A stretch of 64,000 nt of DNA from Mytilus edulis (Eukaryota): contig NC_092348.1 in NCBI RefSeq assembly GCF_963676685.1, positions 81,034,001-81,098,000 of the forward strand, in the 5' to 3' direction. The position numbers and the translations under genes are program-made. The notes under the pieces were generated by a model. That model was not told the DNA's origin, did no database searches, and saw only the letters and a list, made by a program, of their open reading frames with translations. Positions 1-56,134 of the stretch are shown here, piece by piece; the first letter of the stretch is position 1; each line of letters begins with the position of its first letter.

Positions 1-489
1 TTCAAATATGTGGCTTTGCGCGTTCCTGGTGAACGTAAATCCACATAAGATTCAAACGCATGAACTTAATGATTTTATTTCATTTTTTTTTGTGTGGAAA
101 TATTGGAACTCTTGTTTTAAGTCTTTTCTAAGGCCTCTATATTAGAAAGTATCACTATGTTAGCTACTAAATCTATAAAATGTAAACACTCTGAAATATA
201 GTTCCCTATAACTCTCATTTCTGTGTACATATGCACCTATAAACATTTTGGGTTATATCTTTAGAGCAGTTCATTTAAGTAAGTATGTCTTTAGTTTTGT
301 CAACTGCATGGATAGTTATACAATTTTAATTTGGTAAGAGTAATGATACACTGTCGTCAACTACTGTTTGATACATGCTCACTTCAGGTGTAACTATTTC
401 AAACTGGTTGAAGATATCCCGCTTATATTAAGTTCGTTGAACTTTTTCGAAGAAACATTTAATAACAAATTATTGATATTTGAGACCAA

Positions 490-1591: not shown

Positions 1592-4500
1592 CTGAAATAT
1601 AAATTCAGTTGAATTATGAAAATATGATTAAAGAAGATTTTGGGTATATGTCGATGAGCAGTAGATTAATAACGATATGGGAGTGCACTGAATCAAGGTA
1701 GTTTTCTCTTACGATTTAAATTTACAATATCCTTTAACCAAATGCGTGTCAATTACAATTCGATTAACCTACAGTCATTGTTTCCTGATGTTTTTTTTAT
1801 GGTACAAAAATGACACAATGGGTGTTTCCTTATATAAATAGTAGTTCTATATTTTCAAATGCGATTGTTATCACCAAAGAAGTTGTTCTTATAGCACAGA
1901 CTTGCAAAAATGGATACATCTGGTAAACAGTAAAAGATCCCGACAAAACATAGTTTAAATCAAGTCCAAGAATAAAACTAACCGCAACGATCTACAAAAG
2001 AGGGACGAAAGATACCAAAGGGACAGTCCAACTCATAAATCGAAAATGAACTGACAACGCCATGGCAAAAAAATGAAAAAGACAAACTGACAAATAATAG
2101 TACACATGACACAACATAAATAAAGTTTTGTTTTCAACCGACCCTCATTGTCAATTTCTAGATGTAAGTCAATAAAATGAGGCAGACTTAACTGTTTCTG
2201 TAGTATTCTTTATCTCTAGTTCGATGGGATATAAAAAGCGTTCAACATAGCCACCAAGTTTTGAATTATTTAGTGAAAGAACATTATCTATATAGCGGAA
2301 AGAAAGAAGTTCCTGTATGAAGTCAGCCTCATCATAATAAAGAAACAAGCTTAAGTCGACAAGAACAGGGGCACAATTGGTTCCCATTGGAATACTGACA
2401 GTCTGTTGAAAAACACGTCCTTCAAACGTAACAAATATGTTGTTAATAAGGAAATCAAGCATCTTGATAATGTCAGTTGCAGAGATATTTTTAATTAAAT
2501 CAGAGTGATTCTTTACAAAGTAGGATTTATCCCTCCCCAAGACAATATAATTGTATCTATGTTCGCCATTCTTTGTTGTGAAACAAAGAAAACACCAACA
2601 CTTTCAATTTGTCTTTTAGTTTGGAATGGGGAATAATTAGAATAGGCAGTTTTACAATAACGTTGAAGCCCGGCTTTGATTGCTGATAAAAAAGATGTTA
2701 ATAATTTAGAAAGAGGTTTCGTGAAGTACTTGGAAGATTGATTGATTGTTGGTTGCTTAACGTCTAGTGGCTGTACTTGGAAGACCCAGCAACATTTCGT
2801 TGTGTGTAAGGACACTCATGTAGTTTAGGTATCCAATACAGGGATGGAAGATCCAGTTCTTCATCTTTGGTTGAAATTCCAAAGGAACATAGAACAGAAC
2901 AAATATGAGAGAAACCATAAAACGACTACCACTAAAGTACAAGGCTCATGAATTGAGGAAGGCAGAACTAGATTGTTAGGGTGCTAAGTGCTCCACCAGA
3001 CATATGACTAGCGAACGTTGTGGTATGAAAGATTAACATAAGAACATCTTTTTAGACCAGGTTGAAAAGGAAACTGAACGTTTTCAGTTGCCGTTCTTTA
3101 CACAGAAAGCCTTACATCATGAATATTACTCGAAATGCATCGACATAGAAAATACAAACGTTCAGTTGATACACGAATGGGGTTGAAGTCAGATGTTGGA
3201 TGAAGATATTCCCGATGTTTCGAATTCTGATTCAAAATCCAATATTTGAAAATGAGTCTACTGGACAATGGAGTGAACGTACTAGAACAGCATATAACCA
3301 ATTTAGAAATAATGAGTTAAAGAACATCGACTGATCGAGCAAATTATAAGAAGAAACACGTGATGTGTCGAGTAATCCTAAAAGTTCGAGAAGTCAAGTT
3401 TACATGAAATGTCAAGAAAAGCGGATGACTCTATGCCTTGGCTGTATTTGGCGAAACTTTTAGTAGTTTTGATGTTCGTTGCTCTACAACTTCGTACTTT
3501 ATTTGGCCTGTTTTACTTTTTTGGAATCGAGCGTCACTGATGAGTCTTTTGTAGACGAGGCGTGCGTCTGGCGTAAATACAATTTGAATCCTGTTATCTA
3601 TGATGCGTTTATTTGCAACCACTGTGTCGATGCCACTGCTGCTGATGTTTTGATTCCCAGTAGGTATCAAAACGTCAGCACTACTCTGATTACATGAATC
3701 ATCATTGATATGGTCATATTAGACATGTTCACCATAAGCCGTAACCGAAACTGAATCCGAAACCGAAACCGATACCGAAACCAAAAAAAAAGGAGTGAGG
3801 TAAATAATAAATGTTTATAATGTTAAACTAACTCATCCCTTTAACTCCATTATATTGTTTTAAATTTGAATACACTAGATGGAGTATTACTTCAATTCAA
3901 CAATTTACATGCATCTATCTCACAGAGGAAAAAAAACTTCCTTTAGAAGCTAATTCTTTACCCTTCGAAGTCATTTGAACGCTTTGCTCCCGTTATCAAA
4001 TTCATGTTGAAATATAAATTCAACCTGGTGAATTCGATATCTAACTTTGTTGAAAGATCTTTGTGACTGTTCGTGTCAAAACAAATTGTTTGATTCTGTA
4101 ACAAGTGTCGGATATATTCCATTAAATGTTATTAAAGCTATATTGAAAATGTATAAAATATGATGTGCAGTATAAATGCTTATATTTATTTTTATAATAT
4201 ATATTCGATTTTCAAAATAATATTGAGACAAAGATAACAATATATATTGGTTTCACAGAAAAATAATGTTTAATTGATGCTGTTAGCCTCACGAGAACGA
4301 ACAACATATATAAATGATGTTTATATTTTAATAGTTTCCCAATTCATTTGGACCCCGATTATTACCTAATGAAAGTTTAAACCCATATCAAGAAAATGAC
4401 ATTTACCAGTAATGTATAAGACATGAAATCAATTTCTTCAGGATTACCGGTAAAACAGTATATAGTTTATAATTATATTTGATACGCATGCGAGGGCTAA

Positions 4501-27131: not shown

Positions 27132-27325
27132 TTATGATATTGAACGGACAATAGATTCTTTTTGTGTGTTGTTAAATGTTTCATATACACTGAAACATCT
27201 CTGGTTGCTTTCCAGTCCCCTTAAGACCTGATGACTTGTAAAAGCGGACAATTCCTGGTTATACAAATTACCCGGAACTAACTGATTTGATCCTCTGTCC
27301 CTCACATATGTCACAAATACATCAG
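27132..27325 (-). CDS. Gene B last coding exon (ADVFVTYVRDRGS...LYNQEL...VRSIS*)
   Basis: Acceptor TGTTACAG. 194 nt long and homologous to 1398-1591. Confidence 0.88.
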
Positions 27326-30300
27326 CTGTAACATAAATATTAGATAAGTTTTTGATGCATAAAACTTACTGTTAAACATATAAAACAAGAATGTGTCCAT
27401 AGTACACGGATGCCCCACTCGCACTACCATTTTCTATGTTTAGTGGACCGTGATATTGGGGGTAAAACTCTAATTTAGAATTTAAATTAGGAAGATCATA
27501 TCATAGGGGACCATAGGGGAAGTTAACCTGAAGCGGGACAGACGGACGAACGGACGCACAGACCAGAAAACATAATGCCCCTCTACTATCGTAGGTGGGG
27601 CATAAAAAAACTTTCTAATCAAAATAACTCAGGAAGTTAATCGTCTTAGTCAACAATAAAATGAGAACTGACCTCACATCAATGTTGTGTTGCACAGTGG
27701 AGGCGCCAAAACACAATATGATGTCTGCGGCAGCGACTGTTATTATGTATGGCAAGAGGTCACCTAAGAATGAGCTAAACGGTATTGTAATGATTCTTTG
27801 TCATGTACGTGCACAGAGTTTAACTCTTTATGTATCAAAACAATTTACTAAGACGACGGTCCATTAAAAAGTGCAACAAATGATTACAGGACTGATTAAT
27901 GTGATCTGTATTATCGATGACGTGGGAAGGCATCTTGGTGTAGCATTATAGCTTCGATTGCTGGAAATAATGGGTTCGGATCCAGCCAGGATCCAACCTA
28001 GACATTAAAGGATTCAGCGAAAAAAATAGTGGGCTCGAAATAAATTGGCGTGGTAGGGTGGCATGTTTTCCTGCGAGCTGTATAACAATATGGCAGCTGT
28101 TATCAATAATTCGTTCCTATATATGTTGGCGTTTGTTTTTGTAGCTGTTCAGTGTTTCTTGTGTTTCGTTGTTTTCCTCTTACACTTGATGTGTTTTGTT
28201 TTTTGACAAAGATTAGTCTCAGTTAAATTGATTTATAACTATCGAACAGCGGTATACTACTATTGCCTGTATGTACAATTGTTTTATGTAAAAGACTTAC
28301 CACCAAGTTTCTGAGCAGCTTGTACAGTCACAAGCTTCTTATCGCCTAAGTCCTGTCCAGGATTCTCTAAGATCACATTGCGCTCATTGAAGTCGACAAA
28401 TACAAAGATGTATCTTGCACCTGGAATATTTAGGATATCTTCATGTCTCCTGACCAGATGCTGAATGATTTCTATGTTTCCTCCTCTATTCTTTGTTGCT
28501 AGAGCCGACTTTACCAATTGTTTGTGCAAATTCATAGTTTCAGAGTAAAAACTCAATACACATACTTTGTTATCAAAGACCGGAACTCTTTGGATCCTAT
28601 CCAGTATACTAGGAGCCCTCTAAAATAGTAGCGAAAAACTCCATTCAAACAGTTTAAATATGTTAATACTATTAAGTAAAAGAGGAACGAAAGATACCAG
28701 AGGGACAGTCAAACTCATAAATTGAAAATAAACTGACAACGCCATGACTGAAACTAAAAAGACAAACTGAAGACACAACATTGAAAACTAAACACTAAGC
28801 AACACAAACCCCACCAAAAACTTGGGGTGAAATCAGGTGCTCCGGAAGGGTAAGTTTATCCTGCTCCAAGTGAGTACACATGCTAGATAAGACACAATGC
28901 CGTTATGAGTTTTCTTATTTTCATTTTGTAAATGAAAATAAATCTGAAATTTGATCCTGCTTTCATAGGGAATCGTTTCGTTCACTCAAAAACACATTCG
29001 TACCATACACGTTCACAACTTGGGTCCGTTAAACTCTGGGTTTTTTTGGTGATTAAAAGATTGATTATCAATAATGTTTTATATAAGATTATTTTTAATT
29101 GGTATTCTCAAAGCTTATTTGATATTAGTGTAATGTGTTTGGTGTAAAGTAAAATACTAAAGTTAGCGTGTAGGAGAAAAAACAATGAGGAATGTTCATG
29201 AAAAAATGAAAATTAACAGTTTGTTACTAATTTGATAGTCGTTTAAAAAATTAATCAGTTAAAAAAAACTTTAAAAAGGGTGCAAACGTGTGAAGTGCGA
29301 CGCGACCCCCTGCAAAGGCGAAAGAGAAGGTGAATCAACCAATTCGTTTCAATTTGCTAAATCAATTCTTTCCAACAGTGTTAAACCATTTGGACTATTA
29401 AAACAACCTTATTACTTTTAAATCTACTGTATATACATGTATGTGTACATGGAAAACATTCGTAAATATAAATCGAAATGCAGACATCTTATACGTTCAG
29501 GTATTTCACATTCAATTTTTTATGGTAATATGTTTTACAAAGCACAAGAATGTCGGCAACAGACTTATTTGAAACAAGGGATATAGTTACGATACTGTTG
29601 TCAGGCTATAAAAGATGGCATATTTGGCTTTATATTGATTCACTTATATGGCCAATTTTTGGCATGATACAGGTTATTTTCTTCTTATATATTTTATGAT
29701 GGTAGGATATTAAACTCCTGACAGGAGAGATTGTGCTTGGTATTTATATGATGAAGACATATTTTTTCAATCAGTTGAATTGAGATCAGGAGCTGGCATG
29801 TCAGTAACGTTTAGTAGTCCTTTTTTGATTTATGTATCATTGTCATTTTGTTTAGTTTCTTTTGTTACCTCATCTGACAGCACACTCAGTCTTCTTTTAA
29901 ATAGAATTGGCTAGATGTATTGAGGTAGGTTTGAGATCTAAAAAAAACCATATTAACTACGCCGCATTTTTGCGCCTGTTCCAAGTCAAGAGTCGCTGGC
30001 CTTATTTGTCTCGTGTGATTTTTAGATTTAGTTTCTTTTATATATTTCGGAGATGAGTATGACGTCCATTATCAATGAACACATTTGTGTTTAGGGGCCA
30101 GCTGCAGAAAGACTCAGGGTGTGAGATTTTCTCGTTGTCTTGAATACACATAGGCTGTTTTCCGCTCTTTGATCGGGTTGTTGTATCTTTGACAAATCCC
30201 CCATTTCCAATCCGAAATCTTATATAAAATAAATATGAGTAATAATTAAACATGTATTTCTTTTGTTAATACTGTATATGATAGCATCTATCTTAGCAAA

Positions 30301-33300
30301 TATTTCTTTACACTATTAATTAGTCCAGTCAACCTAGGAAAATGTAATTGCAACAGAATATTTTTAAGTTTTAATCTTTAGCATTATAACCCAATTATAC
30401 ATAGAAAAAGTCAAACAAAATAATTTGAGGAAATTAAAAAATCACGATTTTAAATTTCCTATGGAGATTTGCATTGAAATGGGAGATATAAACTCTACAA
30501 AAAAGGCAGAAATATCAATAAAAATTGATTAAAAATTATAACTTTACTACTTCTATTCAGCAGAAAGTTTTGATTCTTGATATTTTGGCCGTATTAGAGT
30601 ATTACAAAAGGATATAAATGTGTTCTCATATATCTTTTATCAAACTTGAACCTAAATTTCGTAATTCAGTAATTGACCATTTATTTAATTTTTCAACATG
30701 TCAAGGTAAAGAATCTCAAATTAAATAAAAATAATCAAACGTATATTCTTCTGTTTGTGGTTTAAAGTTTCTTTAAACAAATATAATTTACAGATATAAA
30801 AAATACCAAATTTTCACAATATTTTTTTAAATAGTCACTCAGCCATAAATTTGCAGCTCTGTAATGAAAAATGCACCCAAAAAAAGAGTACTCATAACAC
30901 TTTGGTTTTATTCATTTCATGTGCAGAAGATGATATATCAAAGTCAAATACGAACGTATATCCCCATTAAAGCATCAGTCTTTATTTGAATTTTAAGAAA
31001 CTGACTCATTTTTTCCCCTTTCCAATGTAAATTTCCATGCATTTATCAAAAGAATGAATTAATGTTGCGCCTACCATTAAACAATAAAATGAATTAGTAA
31101 AGCACGCATGAATTAAAATAATATATATGAAATTGTGTTGTTGCATGTTCATATATACACGCGTTCGTATATATTTAGTAACTTCATAAATTCTCATTGC
31201 TTCTTAAAATATTTAAAGACATTCTTATATTTTACCAAGATGAAATGATTTGTCTTCTTTCTATTTACAGAGGGAAATGATAACATTAAATTGAAGTTTT
31301 ATCTGTTTTTCAACTTATTTTTATTATCATTATATACAATAACGTTTTCCTGTGAAATCATAATTGATACCGCCCGCGTTAAACTGAGACAAACATTAAA
31401 AAGTTTTAAGTTTTTACAGGGGATGTAATATTTTGTCACTAGATTTTCCACTGTAGTTTATAAATCTCGTCTATATCCGCTTTACCATTAATTAATTTTC
31501 AAAGAATGTAGTAGTTTATAGCATATATCTGTTCATGTTTATTAACCCATAGAAACACTACTTCTTATTTATATTGTATAATTATATTTTTTGCGCTTTT
31601 TTTAAATTTTAAATAAAGGCAACAGTAGTATACCGCTGTTCAAAACTCATAAATCCATGGACGAAAAACAAAATCGGGGTAACAAACTAAAACTGAGGGA
31701 AACGCATTAAATATAAGAGGAGAACCACGACCCAACATTAAAATGTAACACACACAGAAACGGACTAAGCATTAGACAAAATCATATGAGAATAACAAAT
31801 ATAACATCAAAACCAAATACATGAACTGGGGATAGATAAGTTAGATAAAATAATATAAAACATTGTTTAAACTAAACACTAATACTGAATGCTATATTTT
31901 GTCGGTATTTAAATGTGGCATTGCACAAGGTTTGATTTTCTAAAGTGCAGGAAATTTATTTCCCCTGAATCCATAGGAGGTGTGCATATAGGCATCTTTT
32001 TCTGGGAAATCGTGATCTATTTATTAGCCGATAAAACAAAAAGCACTCAAATAACAGTTCTGTTCTTTTGATTAATTTCATGCTGAACATTAATTATTTT
32101 TGTTTTTTGGCTTTTTAATTTTGTAACAAAATTACCTGTGACAAAAAGGGTGGAGTCGAATGCGATTCTATTCTCTCATGCTCTCTAAATTGCGTTCCGC
32201 CATTATCATAGCGATAATATGTCATATAAAAAAGCGCACCAATCAACATAAATGCCAAAGCTACACATACATTGATGGGTTGGAACAGTCCTACAATGAA
32301 ACGTTTCTTAAATTAGAAGTATTTGATAGTATTTTATGTTTTTCTGATGCCAATATAAAATAAACTTTACTTATTGGATTCAATTAATATTCTTATTCCT
32401 ATATGTGTCTTGAAAAAGTTAAGTCAATTGAGTAAACCTTGCGAAATAAGTGCATGAATAAGTCAAATTGAATTTTACGATGAGAGGGAACGTTTTCTAA
32501 CTCACTTTTAGAATGTTTTGTCAAACGTAAAAGTAACTCTTTAATTACTGTAACATTTCAACTTCATCGTAGCCAGTGCCTACTGAAAATATGTTTTTAT
32601 GATTATTTAATAAAAATAAATATAAATATTTTGATAAAAAAAAAGACTGTGGAGTCTTATAATTTATAATTCATTTATATTATCAAATTTCAACTGTTTT
32701 CTTATATCCTTGTTTTTCTGACGGAAAATTGTTATACAAATATTGATATAATATATAACAATAAACTAGAGTATATTTATAACAAATGATAATATCACTA
32801 CAATTTAATTTATAATACGGTGAAGTTGAATTCCCTGTCATTTATTCACATCTACACATGAAATTGTCACATGAAAAACTATATCTATATACCTTAACCT
32901 AACTTTCAAGTATAGAAATGTGATTTTTATTTTGAGTCAAGTGCTTGTGACCATCCACTCAAATTTGTGGTAATCCGATGTTCAGTACTTCAGTACTTTG
33001 AATACTTTTGAAAGTTTATTTTTAACTATTACGGATTTTGTCTATGTATAACAGCTTTAGATATAGAGGACACAACTTAAACTTTACCTCTTTGTTCTAG
33101 TTTGGGCCGTTTCGGTATTGAGGCGAGGTTGTTGGACACATTTTCAAAACTATTTACCAAAATAATGATTGATGTTAAGTGGAATATTAAAACAAGTATG
33201 CTTAGGGCCATTTCGGTATTGAGGCGAGGTTGTTGGGCACATTTTCAAAACTATTTACCAAAATAATGATTGATGTTAAGTGGAATATTAAAACAAGTAT

Positions 33301-36300
33301 GCTTAGGGCCATTTCGGTATTGAGGCGAGGTTGTTGGACACATTTTCAAAACTATTTACCAAAATAATGATTGATGTTAAGTGGAATATTAAAACAAGTA
33401 TGCTTAACATCTTTTTTACAATGATAGTTTTAAAGTTTGATATCCTATATTGAAAAGTAAATCAAGTCAAGTTTTAAAAAAAATGATTGCTTAATTTTGC
33501 AATTAAGATTATAACGTATCATATAAGGAATCGTATTCCAGATACAATCTAAACAATAACGGTTTACAAATTGCATATAAATATTGTTTAGATTAATCCC
33601 GAATTTAAGTCCAACTACAAACATCCTAAATCGTGAATGCTTACTGCAAAACAAAAAATATTATATTTAAATTATGTTAAATATTTCACAGCCGAATCGA
33701 TTTAAAACGTGGAGACACGGATGCAGGCCTCATTTGTATTGTTCAGAGACCTGACTCTGTAATCTTATCATTGATTTTATTTGCAGATTATCAAATTTTA
33801 AGATATAAAAGCATCTGTGACGATTCATGCCAACTTCATAATACCCATTTATATTTACTTATTAAAAAAGTTGCATAGTTGCTAAAAAAAACTACATACC
33901 CGTATTTTGTGATTGCAGATTCCTAACTTGGATATCAAGTTCCCTGACTTTGGGACCCGTGTATTCTTCAAATAATTTCATTTTATTAACATCTTTGCTG
34001 AGGGAATCCACATTACTTTTAAAATGTCCAAGCTTCCCGTTGTAATCGTCTACTTTGGTAACCATGCTTCCTATTTTAACTTCTGTTTTGGAAATGTCAG
34101 TATTTAATTCACTTGTCTTCTCTAAAATTTTACCTTTCGATGTTTCTAAATCTTCTGATAATTTCGTCAATCTATGTGTTAAGTTGTCGTCAGTCTTTGA
34201 TATGTGTTGTTTGAGCTTTGTTATATCTTCATTAGACAGCTTTACTTGCTCTTCAATATTTGTCTGTTGTTCCACAGCAGAAGAAACTGCATTACTTACA
34301 CTTTCTGATGATTCCTTCAAATCTTTTAATCTCGACTCAGTATTATTTACTTCCATTTCTAAATCACGAAGTTGAACTTTATTATCCTCAAGGCTCCTTT
34401 GCATTAGAGGTAAAAGCTGATAACTGCTCCTAATCAAGGTAGCAGATTTGTTCATATTTTCTAAAGTAGGCAAATGTTTATTAATTTCATTAATTACTGT
34501 ATGTACTTCAGAGACAGATGTGTTGACATATTCAGCTTTATCACTTGCTTTGTTTAGCAAAACATTAAGACTTGTTTGATTTTGAAATGCTATTTCAAGT
34601 TTTTTCTTAATATCGGTCGTTTCATTGTTCATTGAGTCGATAGTTTTTGAGAAGTTTGAAATATCATTATCTGCCCTGGCAAGGGTTTTAGTAATTTCAA
34701 TAAATGTTTGCTGCTGTTGTGGTAAATCGACTTCCAGTTTACTACTGATCCCCTCTGTTAACTTTATTCTCATTTCTACGTTTTTCAAGGTATCGTTTGT
34801 TGTAGTCATCTTACTTTGCAAAATAACGACATGTGTATCAATATGTACTAATCGTTCCTCTAGTTTCAATAAATCGACATCTAAAATTGGCACTTTTTCG
34901 GAAAGTGTCTTCACTTTTTTCAAATATTCTTCATATTTCATCAACACTGCAAATTTATTTTCGATCTCGTATTGAGCTCGAATTATGTATACTGCCACAG
35001 CCATTGTAAACACTACAGCAGGTCTGAAAAGTGGATTGGTAAAATATATCGCAAACAATTCTTATATTTCAAAACCATTTAAAAGTCCCTTTGTAAACTC
35101 AAGTTAAGGCAAACGATCAAACAGCAGTGTAATATTATTTTTCTTGAGACAACTATTTAATTTGAATTTTCAATTTGGGATTGCAAAATACTATCCATGT
35201 GCGTGTGTGGATTGTTATTTTGATACCTACTATAAACATGCAGAAAAAATAAAACCGAATATACATTGCAAGCACAACTACAAGAACTAAAATATGAACA
35301 GAATTTAATGAGAAAAATTAAAACAAAGATTTGTTCATATTAAGTGAGCACATATCGACATATAATTATACGAAACAAATTACACAAACAGCTGCTTTGT
35401 GTTGTCTCGTACTTGTAATAATCAAGGTGCTCTGTGTTTAAGACTTCACTCAATATGACTCTATATATGTCACTATGCAGTTGCTTTGGGTTTTGCAAAG
35501 TATTTACAGGTGTTTTCTATGAAAAACTCATTAATTTAAAATATATTTATACCTTAAACATTTGATACATTTAAAGTTTAAATAAAGGCAAAACTAGTAT
35601 ATCGCTGTTTAAAAGGAAAATCAAGTCGTTAATATTCACAGAAATAAATACATATTGTCTGCACGCATATTATCACAACAAATTCAGTTAAAATGCTGTT
35701 CTTACATTCTACATATGGTTAATTGATGACGAAAATTGATAAGTATTGTTTGTGAAAGCCTTATGAAGCATTTGTCCTTTTTATCAAATGGATATCATAT
35801 ATTGCACAGTTGCGGCAAATATATAATAATATATCACACCTTTATGCGATTGCTTGTGCGACCAGTAACAGTGGTATCATTAATGGCATATCCACTGATA
35901 TGTCATCCCTAAGCAACGTTGGTACAATGTTAAAATAATGATGACTGGTATAGTTGCAGTGTACAGTATATCGTATGAGAGAAGTTTTCACAATAGAACA
36001 AAATACGAGGCTACGTCAGTTTAATGCTTTTCAAGTTTAAATAATTCAAAATGCAAAAGAAGTATTTAGATTTAGTCATAATTCGATTAAGCAAACCAAA
36101 TCCAGGTAACAAGTCATATTTTGACTATTGTATTTATTGTGTCTGTTTATTTAACGCATCAATGTAAAAATATCGGAAATTGATGAGACTGTCATTAAAG
36201 TGAGAGAGTTAGCGCTATAGAAACAGGTTAAATCCACCATTTTCTACATTTGAAAATGCCTGTACCAAGTCAGGAATATGACAGTTTTTGTCCATTCGTT

Positions 36301-39300
36301 TTTGATGCGTTTTGTTATTTGATTTTGCCATGTGATTATGGACTTTCCCAATTGATCTTCCTCTAAGTTCAGTATTTTTGTGATTTTACTTTTTTTTTTC
36401 ATATTCAAATAAATAAATAAATAGTCTTCACACACGTATTATCCCAACAAATTCAGTTAAAATACTGTTTTACGAAAAACTAAGGATTTTCTTATCCCAG
36501 GCATAGATTACCTTAGCCGTATTTGGCACAACTTTTTGGAATTTTGGATCCTCAATGCTCTTCAACTTTGTATTTGTTTGGCTTTATAAATATTTTGATA
36601 TGAGCGTCACTGATGAGTCTTATGTAGACGAAACGCGCGTCTGGCGTACTAAATTATAATCCTGGTACCTTTGATAACTATTTACACCACTGGGTCGATG
36701 CCACTGTTGGTGGACGTTTCGTCCCCGAGGGTATCACCAGCCCAGTAGTCAACACTTCGGTGTTGACATGAATATCAATAATGTGGTCATTTTAATAAAT
36801 TTCCTGTTACAAAACTTTGAATTTTACGAAAAACTAAGGATTTTTTTATCCCAGGCATAGATCACCTTAGCCGTATTTGGCACAACTTTTTGGAATTTTG
36901 GACCCTCAATGCTCTTCAACTTTGTACTTGTTTGGCTTTATAAATATTTTGATATGAGCGTCACTGATGAGTCTTATGTAGACGAAACGCGCGTCTGGCA
37001 TACTAAATTATAATCCTGGTACCTTTGATAACTATTTACACCACCGGGTCGATGCCACTGCTGGTGGACGTTTCGTCCCCGAGGGTATCACCAGCCCAGT
37101 AGTCAACACTTCGGTGTTGACATGAATATCAATAATGTGGTCATTTTAATAAATTTCCTGTTACAAAACTTTGAATTTTACGAAAAACTAAGGATTTTCT
37201 TATCCCAGGCATAGATTACATTAGCCGTATTTGGCACAACTTTTTGGAATTTTGGATCCTCAATGCTCTTCAACTTTGTACTTGTTTGGCTTTATAAATA
37301 TTTTGATATGAGCGTCACTGATGAGTCTTATGTAGACGAAACGCGCGTCTGGCGTACTAAATTATAATTCTGGTACCTTTGATAACTATTTATATTTTAC
37401 ATAAAAATTATGGCAAATTGATGACAAAAATGGATAATATATTATCTGTGAAAGCCTTGTGTAGCAGTTGTTCTAGTTATCCAAAGATACCATATATTGC
37501 ACAGTTCTGGCAATTACACAATAATATATAAAAACTGCAATTTACGCGATTGTATTTGCGACAAGTAACAGTGTTCCATTTGTGACAAAACAACTTTACT
37601 GGTATGCCATCACTAAGCAACGTTGGTACAATGTAAAAATAATGATGTCGGATATAATTGAGTGTACAATATATCGTATGAGACAATTTCTCAACATAGA
37701 ACAAAATACGATGATGTATATAAACACTACAAGTAACCGTGTTGACTTCAACAATGACCAAAACCCTCAAATATCTGGTTAACATTCGTTGTTTATCGCA
37801 TGTCGACCCTTTGGCTAAAATAGCTGTGTTTTAACAAAAAAATCAAAAACTGGATGTTGCAGTGGACTTTTTTTTAGTTTCTACAACAGGTGCCAAAAGC
37901 CCTAAATTTGAAAACTTCCCAACAGGTAATAATTGAAATGAACTGTTTTGCTCGACATGGACAAAAACGTAACAAACACTCTTGTAACATACACACTTTT
38001 GACAATATTATTTAAAACAAATCAATAGGGATTTCCTTCCCCTTGTGTGCTACCATTTAACGGTATCTAAGTTTGGTTCCAGTATATGTTTAGTCCTGGA
38101 CATATGATCGATAAACGCATTTTATATTTGTTTACAGAGACTATCACCTTTAAATATTGACCTCTGAATCCATAACAATCTTCCTAGTAACATAATACGC
38201 GAACCAAACAATTCTTATAGCTCTGTACCTACACGATTGGCAATTTTGATTTAAAAAAAACGTGTCACATCACAACTTATTCATGATCAGAAAACAAAAA
38301 TGGACGCCAAAATGGAGAAATATGCCTTGCGTAATCTAGCCAGAAGATATATATTCTGTAAGACAGTTTTCACTATTCACGATCATATATTTAGGAACAA
38401 ATATGGGTCTGCACAGTGTACAATATATCGTGTGATTGGTATTTACAAAGTGGTATGAAATAAGATTTGTTTTTGCTATATTTATGTTTGTTCTTTTTCA
38501 ACTTCATATGTTTTGGCCATCATTACTTCGTTTGATCCAAAATGCCTAATCTCGCGATCACTGATGAAAATAGCATAGGAAGATGTTACTAAATTGGAAA
38601 AACCTTTAATAGTAGCAAAACAACACACTTGACCGTTTTGTATTAGTGGAAAGATCTTCAACTCAAAACCAATGTCTATTTGTTATGATAAGTAAACGTT
38701 TCTTATCTTAACCATGTTCGAGTTATACACAAGAAGAAATATTGGCTTCTGTATTCCTGTAATAACTCTGTTAATTGACAGGTTCTTGGATACATACAAT
38801 TCCCACCAACGAACATGTTTGTCTTCCGTTGTGGTAAGGTTGTTGTTTGTATTCAAATATATAAATGAAAGAATTTCGAAGTTTCGATATTTGATTGGTT
38901 TTTTTTAACAATTTTTTAAAGAATATTTGGATTAACTCAGTAGGTATATAACAATGAATTTTAAATTATCAATGACGGTATCCTATAAACAATAACAAAG
39001 GTCTAGTGATAACCGACACTAAAAAATGTCATTGAATCAAAATGAAGCCTAAGCATACTTTCTACTTGAACAGTTTAAACAAGGAATATTCTAGTGTTGA
39101 CATTTGAAAACCAGATGCTCTGCAGGGCGTAGCTTTATACGACCGCAGAGGTTGAACCCTGAACGGTTGGGGCAAGTATGGACACAACATTCAAGCTGGA
39201 TTCAGCTCAAAATTTGGATTGTGATTAAATAGTTGACACAGCATAGGTTTCTGACACAGAATGAATGTGTTCTAATGAACTTAAAATTTTTGTTTTCTCT

Positions 39301-41746
39301 TAGAGCAATTCACTATGCTGTTGAATATTAATCCTCTCAAAAAAATGTTTGAAGAAATTTTCTTTTTTATTTATGAAATTTCAAATGAGAAAAATTGAAC
39401 CCAATTTTTTTAATCACATCCCCCTTTCCCTTATTCCAAAACTAATCTCAATTAAAATTTCTAATGGAGTTTGCAACAATAACTACTCATTTAAATACAT
39501 CATAAAATATTAAGATGTAAAAAAACTGCTTGTTATCACTGAATGGTAAAGATTATTTTAATTTATCAGTTGGTAGTAAAAAGTGAATATACATTGTATA
39601 TTGTATATAACAAAGATTTAAGTTGATTCTGGACAAAGAAAGATAACTCCAATTAAAAAAAAATATTGCTATTGCACAATATTTTGCAATTAGATATTTC
39701 TTGCTTACTATTCTGGACAAAGAAAGATAACTCTAAGTAAAAAAAAATTTGCTATTTCACAATATTGTGCAATTAGATATTTCTTGCCATTGCGCAATAC
39801 TGTGCAATTGAAAAGACTTGCTATTGCACAATACTTAATATAATAATTTTAGATCCTGATTTGGACCAACTTGAAAACTGGGCCCATAATAAAAAATCTA
39901 AGTACATTTTTGGATTCAGCATATCAAAGAACCCCAAGATTTCAATTTTTGTTAAAATCAGACTAAGTTTAATTTTGGACCCTTTGGACTTTAGTGTAGA
40001 CCAATTTGAAAACAGGACCAAAAATGAAGAATCTACATACACAGTTAGATTTGGTATATCAAAGAACCCCATTTATTCAATTTTTGATGAAATCAAACAA
40101 AGTTTAATTTTGGACCCCGATTTGGACCAACTTGAAAACTGGGCCAATAATCAAGAATCTAAGTATATTTTTAGATTCAGCATATCAAAGAACCTAACTG
40201 ATTCATTTTTTGTCAAAATCAAACTAAGTTTAATTTTGGACCCTTTGGACCTTAATGTAGACCAATTTGAAAACTGGACCAAAAGTTAAGAATCTACATA
40301 CACAGTCATGACAGTTAGATTCGGCATATCAAAGAATCCCAATTATTCAATTTTGATGAAATCAAACAAAGTTTAATTTTGGACCCTTTGGGCCCCTTAT
40401 TCTGTTGGGACCAAAACTCCCAAAATCAATACCAACCTTCCTTTTATGGTCATAAACCTTGTGTTTAAATTTCATAGATTTCTATTTACTTATACTAACG
40501 TTATGGTTGGTAAACCAAGAAAAATGCTTATTTGGGTCCCTTTTTGGCCCCTAATTCCTAAACTGTTGGGACCTAAACTCCCAAAAGCAATACCAACCTT
40601 CCTTTTGTAGTCATTAACATTGTGTTTAAATTTCATTGATTTCTATTCACTTAAACTAAAGTTATTGTGCGAAAACCAAGAAAATGCTTATTTGGGCCCT
40701 TTTTGGCCCCTAATTCCTAAAATGTTGGGACCAAAACTCCCAAAATCAATCCCAACCTTCCTTTTGTGGTCATAAACCTTGTGTTAAAATTTCATAGATT
40801 TCCATTCACTTTTACTAAAGTTAGAGTGCGAAAACTAAAAGTATTCGGACGACGACGACGACGCAGACGACGACGCCAACGTGATAGCAATATACGACGA
40901 AATTTTTTTCAAATTTTGCGGTCGTATTAAACGGATTACAAGAATGTAAGATAATTAAATTAAGATTTAGAATATTGATATAGTTCCCAATGAACGAGAA
41001 CACATATTATGACGTCTTTGTATAGGTTAATTTGCGTTTTGAGATTAAGAAGAATTGGTGGTACACATTTATAATTATTCGCTAACTATTTAATTTTTAC
41101 TTTAAAACAAATTAATTAAGTTTTATTCTGGAACCGAAAATAATAGTCCCATGTTTATCGTACATCAGTAGCAATGCGATTTCATAAATCATCTGAGATT
41201 TAAAACAACATTCTTACTTTCAACCTGATAAAGGGTTTACATTAACATAACACATGACAATCTAGCTAACGAAACTGCTATTTCAGTGAAAGAACAGAAC
41301 ACTAACTACAAGTATATCTTACTGTATCGTGATAACAAAGTTTGGAAATAGTGTAATCTAAATAGTGATGTAGAGTTTCAAGAAATAATACACTTAAATA
41401 TAATAACTGAATTAAGCTCGTCAAATTTTATCTAAATAAATAACATTTCTACAAATTAAACTTACATGGACAATTTAAAGGTAAATACGTCTGATGCTCG
41501 GCCCAAACTCTGTTCTTTTCGATCTTTTGATGACGTCTGTAAAACAGTTGGACTGTTTTCTTCATTATCAGAGAACTCATGATTTGGGTCTGGGTCGTTT
41601 GTTGAAGAATATATTGGTGTATTGCGCTGATTAGGTTCTGTGTCGTTTGTTGAAGAAGAAATTGTTTTATTGCGCTGATTTGTTTCTGGGTCCTTTATTG
41701 TAGGATGTTTAGTTTTACCTTTTCTTTCTTCTTTCGGGGATGCCAT
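27132..41746 (-). CDS. Gene B (5 coding exons: 41746-41466, 35023-33900, 32290-32136, 28619-28301, 27325-27132), 690 aa; paralog of gene A with the same architecture
   Basis: GT-AG introns. Exon lengths 281+1124+155+319+194=2073 nt give an uninterrupted ORF with phases 2,1,0,1. Confidence 0.87.
27384..27605 (+). mobile_element. Short HINE/Helentron-like element
   Basis: AACAAGAATGTGTCC start, (GACG/GACA)n microsatellite and terminal ATGCCCC...GGGGCAT hairpin followed by an A-tract. Confidence 0.6.
28301..28619 (-). CDS. Gene B coding exon 4: alpha/beta domain part 1 (DNKVCVLSFYSET...YIFVFVDFNERNVILENPG...TVQAAQKLG)
   Basis: Acceptor TATTTTAG and donor G|GTAAGT. Homologous to 9092-9416. Confidence 0.88.
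31612..31840 (+). repeat. Dispersed interspersed repeat (other copies at ~10860-11200 +, 12480-12813 -, 18340-18600 -, 28130-28270 -)
   Basis: Shared AAATAAAGGCAACAGTAGTATACCGCTGTTC end. Confidence 0.65.
32136..32290 (-). CDS. Gene B coding exon 3: TM2 (GLFQPINVCVALAFMLIGALFYMTYYRY...)
   Basis: Absent from the ORF track and found by hand. Acceptor TTTCATTGTAG and donor CAG|GTAATT. Open frame, phase 1 in and phase 0 out. Confidence 0.82.
33104..33406. repeat. Tandem repeat, 3 x 101 bp, near-identical
   Basis: The unit GGGCC(G/A)TTTCGGTATTGAGGCGAGG...CAAGTATGCTTA occurs at ~33104, 33205 and 33306. Confidence 0.9.
33900..35023 (-). CDS. Gene B coding exon 2: TM1 (IPAVVFTMAVAVYII) plus ~355-aa coiled coil with 8 N-X-S/T sequons
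   Basis: ORF 33892..35058. Acceptor CTTTTCAG and donor G|GTATGT. Confidence 0.9.
35655..36010 (+). repeat. Local duplication: uninterrupted copy of the sequence at 36430-36472 plus 37393-37710
   Basis: Shared CAACAAATTCAGTTAAAAT, CATATATTGCACAGTT, CTAAGCAACGTTGGTACAATGT and ATAGAACAAAATACGA. Confidence 0.75.
36604..36647 (+). ncRNA. Type I hammerhead ribozyme, copy 1 (predicted cleavage after C36641)
   Basis: CUGAUGA, GAAA and GUC core. Stem I GCGUCA/UGGCGU, stem II GUCU/AGAC, palindromic stem III ACGCGCGU. Confidence 0.88.
36958..37001 (+). ncRNA. Type I hammerhead ribozyme, copy 2 (predicted cleavage after C36995)
   Basis: Same core as copy 1. The stem I 3' strand reads UGGCAU (one change). 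Confidence 0.85.
37312..37355 (+). ncRNA. Type I hammerhead ribozyme, copy 3 (predicted cleavage after C37349)
   Basis: Identical to copy 1. Confidence 0.88.
39108..40930 (+). mobile_element. HINE/Helentron-like element with internal tandem arrays
   Basis: Subterminal TATACGACCGCA at the 5' end is matched by a 3' TGCGGTCGTAT hairpin. It also has a (GAC)n microsatellite and internal repeats of TTTTGGACCC/GACCAA.TTGAAAAC. Confidence 0.7.
41466..41746 (-). CDS. Gene B coding exon 1: low-complexity hydrophilic N-terminal tail (MASPKEERKGK...) with a 16-aa internal repeat
   Basis: ORF 41462..41746 with good ATG context (AAAATGG). Donor AT|GTAAG in phase 2. An acceptor TTTTTGCAG lies just upstream. 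Confidence 0.75.
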
Positions 41747-45879: not shown

Positions 45880-46162
45880 ATTCTATGTTCAGTGTCGATG
45901 TGGCATGCAGTATGTTGGCGAGACAGAGCAGCCATTCAACTAACGCATGAATGGTCATCGAAGTGACTACACTTGCAAGCCCTACCTACCCATAAGTCGT
46001 CATTTGAGATCACATGGGCACGCCCAAGCTGATCTCAAAAACTTACCACCACAATCATAGACCACAACGAGGGTTGGTCGGAGGTCGACAGAGTCGCTCG
46101 GGAAAGATTTTGGATAAGAAAGTTAAGGACAGTTTCCCCAGAGGGCATAAATGAAAAAAGGA
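45880..46162 (+). mobile_element. Penelope-type GIY-YIG endonuclease remnant
   Basis: Translates as YVQCRCGMQYVGETEQPFN*RMNGHRSD...ISRHLRSHGH and, after a frameshift, RERFWIRKLRTVSPEGINE. Confidence 0.75.
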
Positions 46163-47299: not shown

Positions 47300-49463
47300 C
47301 TCAAAATTGAAAAAACTGATAAATAAGAAAAACAAATTTTATAAAAAGAAAAAACATGATAGCAAACATACTAAAAAATTTAAACAAATTAAAACACAAT
47401 TACAGAAAGAGATGAGAAATGCCTATTGGAATTATATCGAAAACATGATTTTTGACATTGAAATACAAGAGCCTGAAAATTCGAGATTTAACAAACAACC
47501 TTAAAAACTCTTTTCATACATAAAAGGCCAAAACAATGAAAACACTGGTATTGCACCTCTTAGGAGTGAAGGTCTACTTCATACAGATCCCTTGAAAAAA
47601 GCTAACATATTAAATGAACAATTTAAATCAGCTTTTACATCTGAGACCAATACAGTTATCCCTGACAAAGGTCCATCAACACATCCAATAATGGACGACA
47701 AAGACATCAACAGAGAAGGCATCTATAAATTAATTAAAAATATAAACCCAAAAAAGGCAACAGGACCTGATAACATCACTGGAATAGTGCTTAAAGAAAA
47801 CATCAACACATGCACAGACATACTCACTCTAATTTTTACAAAATCAATGCAAACAGGAAAAGTACCTCACGATTGGAACCACGCAAATGTAACACCTGTT
47901 TTCAAAAAAGGAGACAAACATCATCCTGGTAACTATCGTCCAATTTCACTTACATGTATTTCATGCAAATTACTAGAGCACATAATTGCAAGCAACATTA
48001 TGAAACACCTTGAATCTAACAACATACTTTATGACTTGCAACACGGCTTCAGGGCAAATAGATCATGCGAATCCCAAATAATATCACTAATTCACCAACT
48101 ATGTTCAAATAACGACAAAAATATACAAACCGATCTTATCATCATGGATTTCGCAAAAGCCTTTGACAAAGTTCCACACAACCGTTTACTATATAAACTT
48201 AAATTTTTCGGTGTATCAGATCAAGCCGCAAACTGGATAAAATCTTTCCTTTCAAACCGTACACAAACAGTTATGCTAGAAAACCATTCCTCTGATAACT
48301 TACCAGTTACATCAGGTGTTCCTCAGGGCACTGTATTAGGTCCAATACTATTTTTGATATATATCAATGACTTACCTGACTACTTACATCATAGTCAAAT
48401 CTGGCTCTTTGCTGACGATAGCATCATTTACCGACAAATAAAATCACCATCAGATTGCCTTAAACTCCAGGAAGACCTAGAAGGAGCAATCAAATGGAAA
48501 CAAGACTGGCTAATGCAGTTTCACCCTGATAAATGCAACATACTTAGAGTGACCACAAAGAAAACACCTATCCATTTTTATTACAACATGCACGGTCACA
48601 TTATTGAGTCAGTTGAAAATGCAAAATATTTAGGTATAACTATTTCATCAAATTTAAAATGGAACAAACACATTCAGAACATGACATCTAAAGCAAATAA
48701 GACCCTTGGATTCATCAGAAGAAACTTAAAAATAAACTCAGTAACCATCAAAGACCGAGCATACCAAGCCCTTATTAGACCAAAACTTGAATACTGCTGC
48801 ACTGTCTGGGACCCCTACACAACAGAGAACATTAACTCCATAGAAAAAGTTCAAAGACGTGCAGCGAGATATGTATGCTCAAACTACAAATATACTGAAA
48901 GTGTAACAAACATGATTAACACACTCCACTGGCCAACATTACAAGAAAGGAGACTCAAAAGCAGATTAAATATGTTCCATAGAATAACAAACAACAAAAT
49001 TGCCATACCACATACTGACATATTAATTAAAAGCCAATCAAACACCAGGTCTAGCCACGAACAAACATACCGACAAATTCGATGCAGCAAAGACAGTTAC
49101 AAATTTTCATTTTTCTGCCAAACTATAAAAGACTGGAACAAATTACCAGAACCAATAGCCTGCAGCACCACTACTGAGTGCTTCAAGGAGAAACTCACTA
49201 GAGAGATGCTCCTTGACACTTACAAACACCTACATGTATAATATGTATCTTGTTTTTATCTTATACCAAAAATTAAAAATAAAAATTGAAAAATATTACT
49301 TACATATACATTTGTATCATAAAAATTGAAAAATTATTTAGAAACCAAAAATATATATTTTTAATCATTAACAATATTATCAAACCAGACATGCGCCGGA
49401 AAGTAATCATCAACCAGTTGATGTTTTTCTGTATATAAAGAAGAAGAAGATGAAGAAGAAGAT
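47300..49463 (+). mobile_element. 5'-truncated non-LTR retrotransposon (CR1-group LINE) with (GAA)n tail
   Basis: RT motifs NYRPISLT, QHGFR, DFAKAFDKVPH, SGVPQGTVLGP, FADD and KYLG. In-frame stop at 47502-47504. GAAGAAGAAGAT tail at 49440-49463. Confidence 0.9.
47592..49241 (+). CDS. Reverse transcriptase part of LINE ORF2 (no endonuclease; probably non-functional)
   Basis: 549-aa ORF with the full non-LTR RT motif set. It starts at a non-ATG codon downstream of a stop. Confidence 0.8.
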   Translation: MKKANILNEQFKSAFTSETNTVIPDKGPSTHPIMDDKDINREGIYKLIKNINPKKATGPDNITGIVLKENINTCTDILTLIFTKSMQTGKVPHDWNHANVTPVFKKGDKHHPGNYRPISLTCISCKLLEHIIASNIMKHLESNNILYDLQHGFRANRSCESQIISLIHQLCSNNDKNIQTDLIIMDFAKAFDKVPHNRLLYKLKFFGVSDQAANWIKSFLSNRTQTVMLENHSSDNLPVTSGVPQGTVLGPILFLIYINDLPDYLHHSQIWLFADDSIIYRQIKSPSDCLKLQEDLEGAIKWKQDWLMQFHPDKCNILRVTTKKTPIHFYYNMHGHIIESVENAKYLGITISSNLKWNKHIQNMTSKANKTLGFIRRNLKINSVTIKDRAYQALIRPKLEYCCTVWDPYTTENINSIEKVQRRAARYVCSNYKYTESVTNMINTLHWPTLQERRLKSRLNMFHRITNNKIAIPHTDILIKSQSNTRSSHEQTYRQIRCSKDSYKFSFFCQTIKDWNKLPEPIACSTTTECFKEKLTREMLLDTYKHLHV

Positions 49464-51128: not shown

Positions 51129-51619
51129 TTAACTCATCAGATGTATACAAATAGAAATGCATCTAAAAACACTAGACGCCCACGAGTACGTATACACGTA
51201 TGATACGGTGCTTTTTGTCCGCAATTCGCTTTTTGTCCGCTTTTGCTTTTTGTCCGATAATTTTGCTTTTTGTCCGAAACTTTTGCTTTTTGTCCGTTGC
51301 TTTTTGTCCGTTTTGCCTTTTGTCCGATTATTTTGCTTTTTGTCCGAAACTTTTGCTTTTTGTCCGTTGCTTTTTGTCCGTTTTGCCTTTTGTCCGATTA
51401 TTTTGCTTTTTGTCCGAAACTTTTGCTTTTTGTCCGTTGCTTTTTGTCCGTTTTGCTTTTTGTCCGATAATTTTGCTTTATGTCCGATATAAAATGTGTA
51501 TATTTTTGGCAGGTTTCATTTTGAACTTCAAAATACCATGTCCTTTTAGGAGTTAAATACAGACCATACTCACATTATAAATGATTTGTACATGAAATTT
51601 CATGTCTTTTACAATATAT

Positions 51620-54250: not shown

Positions 54251-55038
54251 TGGCTTATCCCTTATTGTAAGTAAGTAAGTTCAATAAATATAAGACTATA
54301 TGCCAGGTCTTTCTGACAACCAATTACAAACAAATTGGGGTTTATCTAATGAGGCTTTTCCCAGGATGCAATTGCTCGTAGACTGTATACAGTTGACCAA
54401 ATAATCCACAAATTCCGCAAAAGGATCTTTTAATTAAAGGCCATGTCCATTTAGACATTAAGCAACAAAAGCCCAGCATGACCGATGCATTTGTCTTTAA
54501 CATCTCCGATATTGATTCCGCGTGGCCTTCCAATTGACATGAGTGTCCATTGGTGTTCATTGTTAAACCTTTGGAGCTATATCAGTTTGTGTGGAAATTA
54601 AGAGCACGATGACCTTCCCTTGGTGATAACAACATGACCAACAACCATATCGTGTGTTACCAAAAGCCGTCAGCGATAGTCACACCGACAATTTGCTACC
54701 TTCGTGGACAAAAGCCTGGCTTTTCGCTGGATCCTAATTAACATCTAGTGTTGTCACTACCATTTGCTGTAGAGATTTAGTTGCACAACATAACAGAAAC
54801 ATTCTTTGTAAATACTCTATGTTGATATTTTGACATTTGGATGGTTCATATACCAATTGTAGCCGAAAAATGATAATGAAACATTTCTGTTTAATATCGA
54901 TCTATTGTTGGAATTGTAAATTTTCATATTCAATTTTTGTTTGTTTAAAGATGACCATTTTAAATAAAGATTTTAATTTTTTAAAAAGCAAGTGTTAGAC
55001 TTGTGCTTTTATTGCCACTCAGTTCATATAACCTGTCA

Positions 55039-56134
55039 TTTTAGTCGAGCCTGTAACTTTTGTTGCAGAAAGCTCGACATATGAATAGTGATCCGGCGGC
55101 GGCGGCGGCGGCGTAAGTTAACTTCTGAAAAGCTTAATATTTTAGAAGGTGGAAGAATTGGATGCTTCATACTCTGTATATAGATGCCTCATGTTACGAA
55201 GTTTCTGTCAGTCAAATGTCCAATGTCCTTGACCTCATTTTCATGGTTCAGTGATCACTTGAAAAAAAAGTTCAGAATTTTTGTAATGTTGAATTCTCTC
55301 TTATTATAAGTAATAGGATGACTATATTTGGTATGTGCGTACCTTGCAAGGTACTCATGCCCGTCAGACAGTTTTCACTTGACCTCGACTTCATTTCGTG
55401 GATCAGTGAACAAAGGTTAGAATAAGTTTTGGTGGTCAAGTCCACATCTCAGATACTATAAGCAACAGGGCTAGTATATTCGGTGTATGGAAGGACTGTA
55501 AGGTGTACATGTCCAACTGGCAGGTGTCATCTGACCTTGACCTCATTTTCACGGTTCAGTGGTTATAGTTAAATTTTTCTGTCTTGGTCTGTTTTTCTCA
55601 TACTTTATGCAATGAGTCTACAATATTTGTTGTATGGAATGATTGTAAGGTGTACATGTCTAGCGGGAAGATATCATCTGACCTTGACCTCATTTTCATG
55701 GTTCAGTGGTCAAAGTTCAGTTTTTGAGTTTTGGTCTTTTTATCTAATATTATATGCCAAAGGTCACTATATTTGGTGCATGAAAATATCTTATGATCTA
55801 TATATAAGTCTCCCAGGTTTTATTTGACCATGACCTCAATTTCACGGTTCATTGCACAGTGTTAAGTTTTTGTGTTTTGGTCTGTTTTTCTTAAACTATA
55901 AGTAATAGGTCAAGTATATTTGTTGTATCGAAGAATTGTTAGCTGTTCATGTCTGCCTGGTATGGTTCGTCTGACCTTTACCTCATTTTCATAATTCATT
56001 TGGTCTTTGTTTAGCTATCTTGGTTAATGTTAAGTTTATGTGGCAGTTGTAATAAATCTTTATACTTAGGGCTATCAACATAATATGAATGATGAGTAAA
56101 GTAGGCGAGACATTTCAGTGTGTGCACTCTTGTT
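55039..56134 (-). mobile_element. HINE/Helentron-like element with TGACCTTGACC internal repeats
   Basis: Terminal GTCGAGC...GCTCGAC hairpin, (GGC)n microsatellite, repeated ATCTGACCTTGACCTCATTTTCATGGTTCA and a CTCTTGTT end. Confidence 0.65.

What the first reader, a model, noticed from the sequence alone, without database searches (positions are those of the whole stretch)
36469..37392. Intact hammerhead retrozyme array in intron of gene B, predicted to release 354-nt circularisable RNAs
Three intact type I hammerhead cores lie exactly 354 nt apart. Plus-strand transcription would self-cleave after 36641, 36995 and 37349 to give two monomers. Stem III is the tiny palindrome ACGCGCGU, which favours dimeric (two-ribozyme) folding. 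Established knowledge: metazoan non-LTR retrozymes of about this size form circular RNAs and are thought to be mobilised by Penelope-like elements, whose RT and GIY-YIG remnants occur in this window. The permuted start and 2.6-unit length fit rolling-circle reverse transcription of a circular RNA. The array is antisense to gene B, so it would not cut that pre-mRNA.
Basis: partly seen in the sequence, partly recalled or inferred. Interest (0 to 1): 0.7.

Follow-up and report, generated by a model that had tools for sequence, protein, structure and literature searches.

The report
Mussel retrozyme with Naiad-type ends
This is one slightly mutated copy of an abundant mussel repeat of an already described kind that carries a predicted self-cutting RNA, and nearly all copies end just before a folded RNA segment shared with ribozyme-free Naiad jumping genes, which likely supply the enzyme that copies it.

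Summary
Real, and a member of a known kind. The 354-nt array (36468-37392) has three type I hammerheads. It lies antisense in intron 1 of a Mytilus edulis gene, and its hammerhead has 7,135 exact genomic matches. It fits the mussel non-LTR retrozymes of Cervera and de la Pena 2020. The stems covary between subfamilies. Family RNA is abundant on the ribozyme strand, but no read can be tied to this locus.

Published mussel monomers cleave without a dimer. The middle hammerhead has a broken stem I pair. The 2.6-unit layout does not prove a ribozyme-made circle, because hammerhead-free Naiad tandems show it too.

The added point is at family level. 74 of 78 copies end 34-44 nt past the cut site, directly before a 71-nt covarying structure. 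That structure is 85% identical to the leader of an intact, young Naiad Penelope-like element, the likely helper. My four literature searches did not find this link in print; a 2026 preprint ties vertebrate retrozymes to Penelope-like elements in general. This scan noted the link before on other DNA of this genome.

The parts
36468..37392 (+). Retrozyme array, 2.6 units of 354 nt; starts at unit position +181 (counted from the cut site), ends at +43
36604..36647 (+). Type I hammerhead 1, predicted cut after 36641; matches the family majority form
36958..37001 (+). Type I hammerhead 2, predicted cut after 36995; core intact, stem I has a C-A mismatch from G>A at 37000 (CpG site)
37312..37355 (+). 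Type I hammerhead 3, predicted cut after 37349
36642..36995 (+). Predicted monomer 1 (354 nt)
36996..37349 (+). Predicted monomer 2 (354 nt; 7 differences from monomer 1)
36686..36756 (+). Structured leader, 84.5% identical over 71 nt to the 5' leader of the autonomous Naiad
37040..37110 (+). Second leader copy; T>C at 37045 breaks one pair of the outer stem
37350..37392 (+). 43-nt tail after the last cut site; its end is the family's fixed 3' insertion end
35024..41465 (-). Intron 1 of gene B (P0001, coiled-coil protein), host of the array
35629..36008 (+). Older paralogous host segment without the array (empty-site analogue of 36398-36467 plus 37393-37711)
36116..36400 (+). Separate 5'-truncated repeat with a T-rich fixed 3' end, about 70 nt upstream; not part of the retrozyme
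1995..2898 (-). Truncated, broken Naiad copy (RT remnant, 72% amino acid identity to the intact family, plus its 3' end)
45899..46158 (+). GIY-YIG-like endonuclease remnant of a Penelope-like element (about 41% identity to the Naiad endonuclease)

Best explanation
The array is a 5'-truncated insertion of the mussel non-LTR retrozyme, a non-coding repeat whose RNA is predicted to self-cleave and circularise and which is likely copied into DNA by a hammerhead-free Naiad Penelope-like element. Steps. (1) Multimeric family RNA is made on the ribozyme strand: shown for the family, not for this locus. (2) Hammerheads cut it into about 354-nt monomers and a host RtcB-type ligase closes them: published for M. 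galloprovincialis, inferred here. (3) The Naiad protein recognises the structured leader: inferred. (4) It primes on nicked AT-rich DNA at the tail|leader junction 39-44 nt past the cut site: the fixed end is shown, the priming is inferred. (5) It copies back through the ligated cut site and round the template until it drops off, giving a fixed 3' end, a random 5' end and near-identical units: the pattern is shown. A cleaved linear monomer cannot give this end, so the template is a circle or an uncleaved multimer. This copy has since drifted about 1% and is probably a passenger in gene B's intron.
For: Hammerheads and period. 7,135 exact copies. Stem covariation between subfamilies. Fixed 3' end in 37 of 40 best-match arrays at +39..44 and in 74 of 78 position-ordered loci at +34..44; 48 of the 78 are shorter than one unit. 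The 350-nt and a third subfamily also end just before the leader (read by eye). The leader matches the segment just upstream of the ORF in 14 of 14 fetched Naiad loci (13 distinct sites); score 95 against 14.3 +/- 2.5 shuffled. Naiad insertions end at the same tail|leader boundary. One leader pair is G-C, A-U and U-A in three families. Many Naiad copies have a 1000-codon open frame, with no hammerhead by regex or Rfam. Units within arrays disagree at 5.4% of family-polymorphic sites against 34% between arrays. Stranded reads favour the ribozyme strand about 3- to 9-fold, run through the cut site and join head to tail. No consistent hammerhead-bearing coding element in 106 loci.
Against: No biochemical test of Naiad on this RNA. 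Similarity to Naiad is confined to the leader: the remaining 279 nt score at shuffle level, and the tail match is weak (13 of 300 shuffles as good; none for the 350-nt family). Only one intact Naiad family was examined, and other Penelope-like families were not surveyed. Short reads cannot tell circles from uncleaved multimers or read-through, and only 126 of 6,066 reads in X21 were 99% or more alike. The monomer is not unusually structured (z -0.74), and the hammerhead is not the minimum-energy fold in isolation. Leader covariation rests on 3 pairs among related sequences. 5' ends cluster at +51..57 (9 of 69, scan p 0.0013), which also fits linear templates that start in the leader.
Confidence: 0.7

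Rival explanations
1. Same helper, linear template. The RT copies uncleaved leader-to-tail transcripts and makes tandems by jumping from the 5' end back to the 3' tail. The circles are a by-product and the leader is a promoter or transcript start rather than a priming signal.
For: Hammerhead-free Naiads make the same tandems: upstream and downstream ends of one element differ by 0.23% against 1.6% between elements (9 elements). Retrozyme 5' ends are enriched at +51..57. Published mussel cleavage is slow, about 0.1 per min.
Against: The hammerhead would cut the tail off a linear template, yet it is conserved with compensatory changes in two subfamilies. 5' ends are not enriched at the cut site (1 of 78 at +1..5). 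39 of 41 Naiad copies with a whole leader run on into another unit's 3' end. No pile of read starts appears in the leader.
Confidence: 0.17
2. The helper is a different, hammerhead-bearing Penelope-like element (Neptune, Poseidon or Hydra type), and the retrozyme is its detached pLTR, as proposed for Xenopus. The Naiad leader match reflects shared ancestry or capture.
For: bioRxiv 10.64898/2026.07.22.740005 links 24 of 57 Xenopus retrozyme families to 22 Repbase elements, 21 of them PLEs, at their termini. Other RT and GIY-YIG remnants lie in the window. The hammerhead half of the unit has no Naiad homology.
Against: In 106 hammerhead loci, 21 had Naiad-like coding hits, in scattered positions and orientations, with no recurring RT-end-then-hammerhead layout (the probe was the Naiad protein only). 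The insertion boundary coincides with the Naiad boundary.
Confidence: 0.1
3. A satellite-like repeat amplified at DNA level, by unequal crossover or slippage, after a single monomer insertion.
For: Low within-array divergence is also expected from local duplication. Long homogeneous arrays exist (L044, 10 units).
Against: Thousands of dispersed copies have a fixed 3' end and graded 5' truncation. The non-integer unit count and the empty paralogous site fit a single insertion.
Confidence: 0.03

Closest known systems
Mytilus galloprovincialis non-LTR retrozymes (Cervera and de la Pena 2020, PMC7229834; parts 1-4 of 6 read, supplement not readable)
   Same: Same genus; 350-390 bp tandem units (their clone Mg353, here 354); type I hammerhead; thousands of copies in more than one hammerhead family; low GC; abundant RNA; PLE helper proposed.
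   Different: Sister species. Sequence identity to their clones could not be tested. In the parts read, the paper gives no fixed 3' end, no leader structure and no specific helper clade.
Naiad Penelope-like elements (Craig et al. 2021, PMC8557442; passages and supplement rows seen; Naiad_Mgal and Naiad_Mcor listed)
   Same: Partial tandems with 5' truncation, fixed 3' end, few target-site duplications; shared 71-nt leader at the unit start.
   Different: The retrozyme has no ORF and has a canonical hammerhead, which Naiads lack. Homology is limited to the leader.
Vertebrate non-LTR retrozymes as PLE derivatives (Li, Clavereau and Pollet, bioRxiv 10.64898/2026.07.22.740005; parts 1-3 of 5 read)
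   Same: Non-autonomous hammerhead tandems linked by sequence to PLE termini.
   Different: No molluscs sampled (0 hits for Mytilus, mollusc, mussel, bivalve). There the link is to pLTRs; here it is to the 5' leader of a hammerhead-free clade.
Non-autonomous Chlamys elements such as MRC1 (PMC8557442, passage)
   Same: Non-coding head-to-tail insertions that depend on an N-terminal-endonuclease PLE.
   Different: Those resemble their helper at the 3' end, and the passage reports no hammerhead for them. Here the shared part is the 5' leader.

Membership tests
Metazoan non-LTR retrozyme | Type I hammerhead in every unit of a short tandem repeat (about 150-450 bp) | tested here: met
Metazoan non-LTR retrozyme | Non-coding, low GC, dispersed multicopy, no LTR structure | tested here: met
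   No ORF of 70 aa or more overlaps the array; region GC 0.34; 7,135 exact matches; array ends
Metazoan non-LTR retrozyme | Hammerhead stems kept by compensatory change | tested here: met
   Four pairs changed on both sides between the 354-nt and 350-nt subfamilies
Metazoan non-LTR retrozyme | Self-cleavage of the RNA | not testable with these tools
   Published for a M. galloprovincialis repeat; middle site here is weakened
Metazoan non-LTR retrozyme | Accumulates as circular RNA | tested here: inconclusive
   Strand-biased, continuous, head-to-tail reads without piles of ends; multimers would look the same
Metazoan non-LTR retrozyme | Highly self-paired monomer | tested here: inconclusive
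   -80.9 kcal/mol, z -0.74 against shuffles; only the leader is significant
Mg353 family of PMC7229834 | Sequence identity to the published clones | not testable with these tools
   Supplement not readable; no nucleotide collection holding those clones among the tools
Dimer-dependent hammerheads (amphibian or minimal PLE type) | Stem III of one base pair or none | tested here: not met
   Two pairs plus a GCGC tetraloop; for the published distinction
Naiad (the proposed helper, L069) | N-terminal GIY-YIG before the RT | tested here: met
   GIY-YIG at 135-172 (weak, E 0.034) and RVT_1 at 645-854, both below the Pfam cut-offs
Naiad (the proposed helper, L069) | CxC and DKA motifs | tested here: met
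   Read by eye in the translation; definition
Naiad (the proposed helper, L069) | No canonical hammerhead | tested here: met
   No core by regex on either strand of one unit; no Rfam hit in L069
Naiad (the proposed helper, L069) | Placement in the Naiad clade by RT phylogeny | not tested
   No tree was built
Autonomous Penelope-like element (the array itself) | Encodes RT and GIY-YIG | tested here: not met
HDV-like or other known ribozyme (the leader) | Rfam ribozyme match or catalytic core | tested here: not met
   No Rfam hit over the leader at E up to 5; by eye no room for the HDV P4 and J4/2 (motif recalled)

The most novel reading that the evidence does not exclude
The 71-nt leader is the RNA signal by which Naiad RT finds its template and primes internally, just upstream of it, on a circular RNA. 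Naiads themselves would then replicate through a tail-to-leader circle made without a hammerhead, which would explain pLTRs. Mussel retrozymes would be minimal circular parasites made of this signal plus a hammerhead.
Probability: 0.3. Interest if true: 0.75.

Novelty: new member of a known kind. Interest (0 to 1): 0.42.

Why it matters
The locus itself is one of thousands. The family-level anatomy addresses two open questions: which reverse transcriptase mobilises animal retrozymes, and how Penelope-like elements prime and build their tandem ends. It offers a named candidate helper with intact natural copies, a 71-nt candidate signal with covarying pairs, and a priming site known to within a few bases. 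All three can be tested in a cell or in vitro assay. If internal priming on RNA circles holds, it would link telomerase-related RTs to circular templates and could inform circular-RNA tools.

Tried and rejected
Target-site duplications: matches of 8 nt or more in 4 of 113 insertions against 2 of 113 mismatched controls; only two are convincing (22 and 40 nt). At this locus only TTTTAC recurs at both junctions, and it is also element sequence.
Enrichment of 5' ends at the cut site: not seen (1 of 78 at +1..5). A first count of 12 of 72 at +45..60 was inflated by my length threshold and was replaced by 9 of 69 with a scan test.
The leader as an HDV-like ribozyme: a crossing helix can be drawn, but it has no compensatory change, there is no Rfam hit, and no read ends pile up there. 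Rejected.
Homology of the retrozyme middle or tail to the Naiad 3' UTR or ORF: shuffle level or marginal.
The upstream repeat as part of the element: none of its 11 other copies has a leader or hammerhead on the same strand nearby.
Pfam found nothing on the window's PLE fragments; tblastn did.
The sigma-70 promoter scan does not apply to an animal and gave nothing.
No RNA holder was listed for the unit; only the four raw-read runs were laid.
No spliced read for gene B intron 1 appears among the joints shown (234 rows not shown).
The supplement of PMC7229834 could not be read, and bioRxiv supplements are closed. Either may bear on sequence identity and on novelty.

Full report
1. Observation. 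The array spans 36468-37392, period 354, 2.6 copies. Three Hammerhead_1 matches lie on + at 33, 35 and 33 bits, gathering score 34. The cut sites follow 36641, 36995 and 37349, and the two monomers differ at 7 positions. Each ribozyme has a 6-bp stem I (two G-U), a 4-bp stem II and a 2-bp stem III closed by GCGC. In the middle copy G>A at 37000 breaks a stem I pair; the competent fold scores -0.3 against -5.7 kcal/mol. The host gene encodes P0001, which its source names as a Mytilus edulis protein. Its minus-strand intron 1 is 35024-41465, so the array is antisense to the pre-mRNA. A paralogous host segment at 35629-36008 lacks the array, which marks it as an insertion.

2. Family. The exact 37-nt hammerhead occurs 7,135 times, control 0. 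A 350-nt subfamily with a different hammerhead occurs 3,101 times and a third variant 2,701 times. PMC7229834 (parts 1-4 of 6 read) describes M. galloprovincialis retrozymes: about 5,000 hammerheads in two families, 350-390 bp units, a single repeat cleaving at about 0.1 per min, abundant circles, and RtcB ligation of Mg353. Its supplement was not readable, so identity with those clones is inferred from genus, size and features.

3. Insertion anatomy. Of the 40 best-matching arrays, 37 end at +39..44 after the cut site. I then fetched 80 loci in order from the first 100 listed places on contig C1 and dropped 2 segmental duplicates. Of the 78 left, 74 end at +34..44 and 70 at +39..44; 48 are shorter than one unit, 20 hold one to two units and 10 hold two or more. 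5' ends are spread over the unit. This array starts at +181 and ends at +43. Target-site duplications are rare (4 of 113 against 2 of 113 controls). Units within arrays differ by 1.4% (126 pairs) against 3.7% between arrays (4,718 pairs). At 14 family-polymorphic sites they disagree in 96 of 1,763 comparisons against 22,631 of 66,192. This array carries 9 non-majority alleles, each in one unit only, as expected for drift after insertion. The first set was chosen for likeness to this unit and is biased towards it.

4. The helper. The window's RT remnant (2172-2603) led to a young family with 1000-codon open frames in 3,370-bp tandems. The protein has GIY-YIG before RT (both below Pfam cut-offs) and CxC and DKA motifs, the Naiad diagnostics of PMC8557442 (passages; its table lists two Mytilus Naiads). 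No tree was built. The unit has no hammerhead. In 14 of 14 fetched loci (13 sites) the 63-71 nt before the ORF match retrozyme positions +45..115 at 83-86%. Naiad insertions end directly before this leader's position, as retrozyme insertions do. The natural retrozyme unit is therefore leader, middle, hammerhead, tail, with a Naiad-type boundary. The match is confined to the leader: score 95 against 14.3 +/- 2.5, whereas the rest scores 27 against 25.3 +/- 4.1 and the tail is marginal. The leader folds well in both (z -3.8 and -3.2; -2.0 in the mutated second copy). On 14 aligned variants 3 of 22 pairs change on both sides; these sequences are related, so the shuffle counts are not probabilities. 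I found this link. The scan's notes show that two earlier agents reached it on other DNA of this genome; those notes are not independent evidence.

5. What the architecture does and does not show. In 9 Naiad elements the upstream partial copy differs from the same element's downstream end by 0.23%, against 1.6% between elements. 39 of 41 Naiad copies with a whole leader run on into another unit's end; 11 more of the 52 examined are truncated inside the leader or ORF start (copies were chosen for intact N-termini). Same-template recopying thus happens without a hammerhead, and the 2.6-unit layout is not diagnostic of a ribozyme-made circle. It does exclude a cleaved linear monomer as template, because every insertion crosses the cut site. 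Retrozyme 5' ends longer than one unit cluster at +51..57 (9 of 69, scan p 0.0013). That may be an RT pause in the leader or a transcript start. In 106 hammerhead loci 21 had Naiad-like coding hits, with no recurring layout.

6. RNA. Four raw-read runs with a coded species label were laid. In three stranded runs depth over 36440-36733 was 649, 792 and 1,546 with the first mate on minus (ribozyme-strand RNA in the usual protocol) against 192, 210 and 222; the unstranded run gave 142 against 155. On one exact period, coverage is continuous across the cut site (1,986 to 1,712 in X21), no pile of starts or ends is listed, and head-to-tail joins number 333, 453 and 552 against 33, 54 and 35. Most reads are 90-99% alike, so this is family RNA, perhaps from a sister species. 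It fits circles but also uncleaved multimers. Nothing shows that this locus is transcribed on +.

7. Mechanism. Shown: anatomy, covariation, fixed end, shared leader, same-template units, family expression. Taken from the literature on the sister species: cleavage, ligation, circles. Inferred: Naiad as helper, the leader as its signal, priming at the tail|leader junction of a circle. The dimer fold is energetically possible but not required by the published monomer data.

8. Novelty. Four searches found the PLE-helper idea in PMC7229834, PMC7761336 (passages) and PMC8557442, and sequence links to pLTRs in a 2026 preprint on 35 species without molluscs (parts 1-3 of 5). None of the text I saw reports a leader shared with Naiads or the fixed end. 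Subscription papers, Repbase and the unread supplements may. Verdict: a real, ordinary copy of a known kind of element, with a family-level clue that makes the helper question testable. Interest 0.42.

Noticed in passing
window 36116-36400 (+): Young 5'-truncated repeat (98-99% identical copies) with a fixed T-rich 3' end. It holds a weak twister-P1 match at 36225-36288 (24.5 bits against gathering 67.2), with plausible P2 and P4 stems but poor pseudoknot letters.
   Followed up: partly
window 39086-41143: A composite repeat in the same intron attracts very deep, strongly stranded RNA reads (about 600-3,100x, minus-strand RNA), with a sharp read start at 39420; family-level signal, element not identified.
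   Followed up: no
window 495-630 (-), 3436-3721 (+), 7289-7449 (+), 16723-16770 (+), 18091-18110 (+): Further decayed retrozyme fragments. Two flank the Naiad remnant in inverted orientation, probably as independent insertions.
   Followed up: partly
L162-L179 (350-nt subfamily): Second retrozyme subfamily with a fully compensated hammerhead, which Rfam did not report in L162 at E up to 1; it shares the leader and the end position.
   Followed up: partly
L166 (G000:C1:22878000-22882500): Array with 363-364-nt units caused by a 9-10-nt insertion in the small hairpin after the leader.
   Followed up: no
L005, L151: Retrozyme copies inserted in Naiad RT remnants at or next to the same TTTAC-GGACGCC site.
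   Followed up: no
L207, L209, L210, L204: Naiad copies whose open frame is 1032 codons (three of them) or that carry a duplicated leader (L207).
   Followed up: no
window 8997-13116 and 27135-41746 (-): Genes A and B are tandem paralogues sharing a C-terminal domain (36% identity at 9072-9449); a third remnant lies at 1401-1598.
   Followed up: no
window 51191-60886: 9.7-kb element bounded by 271-nt, 96% inverted repeats built of 20-nt subrepeats, with internal 147-176-nt tandem arrays.
   Followed up: no
window 47505-49241 (+): 578-codon open frame with an RVT_1 domain (E 4e-38) of a LINE-type element, unrelated to the array.
   Followed up: no
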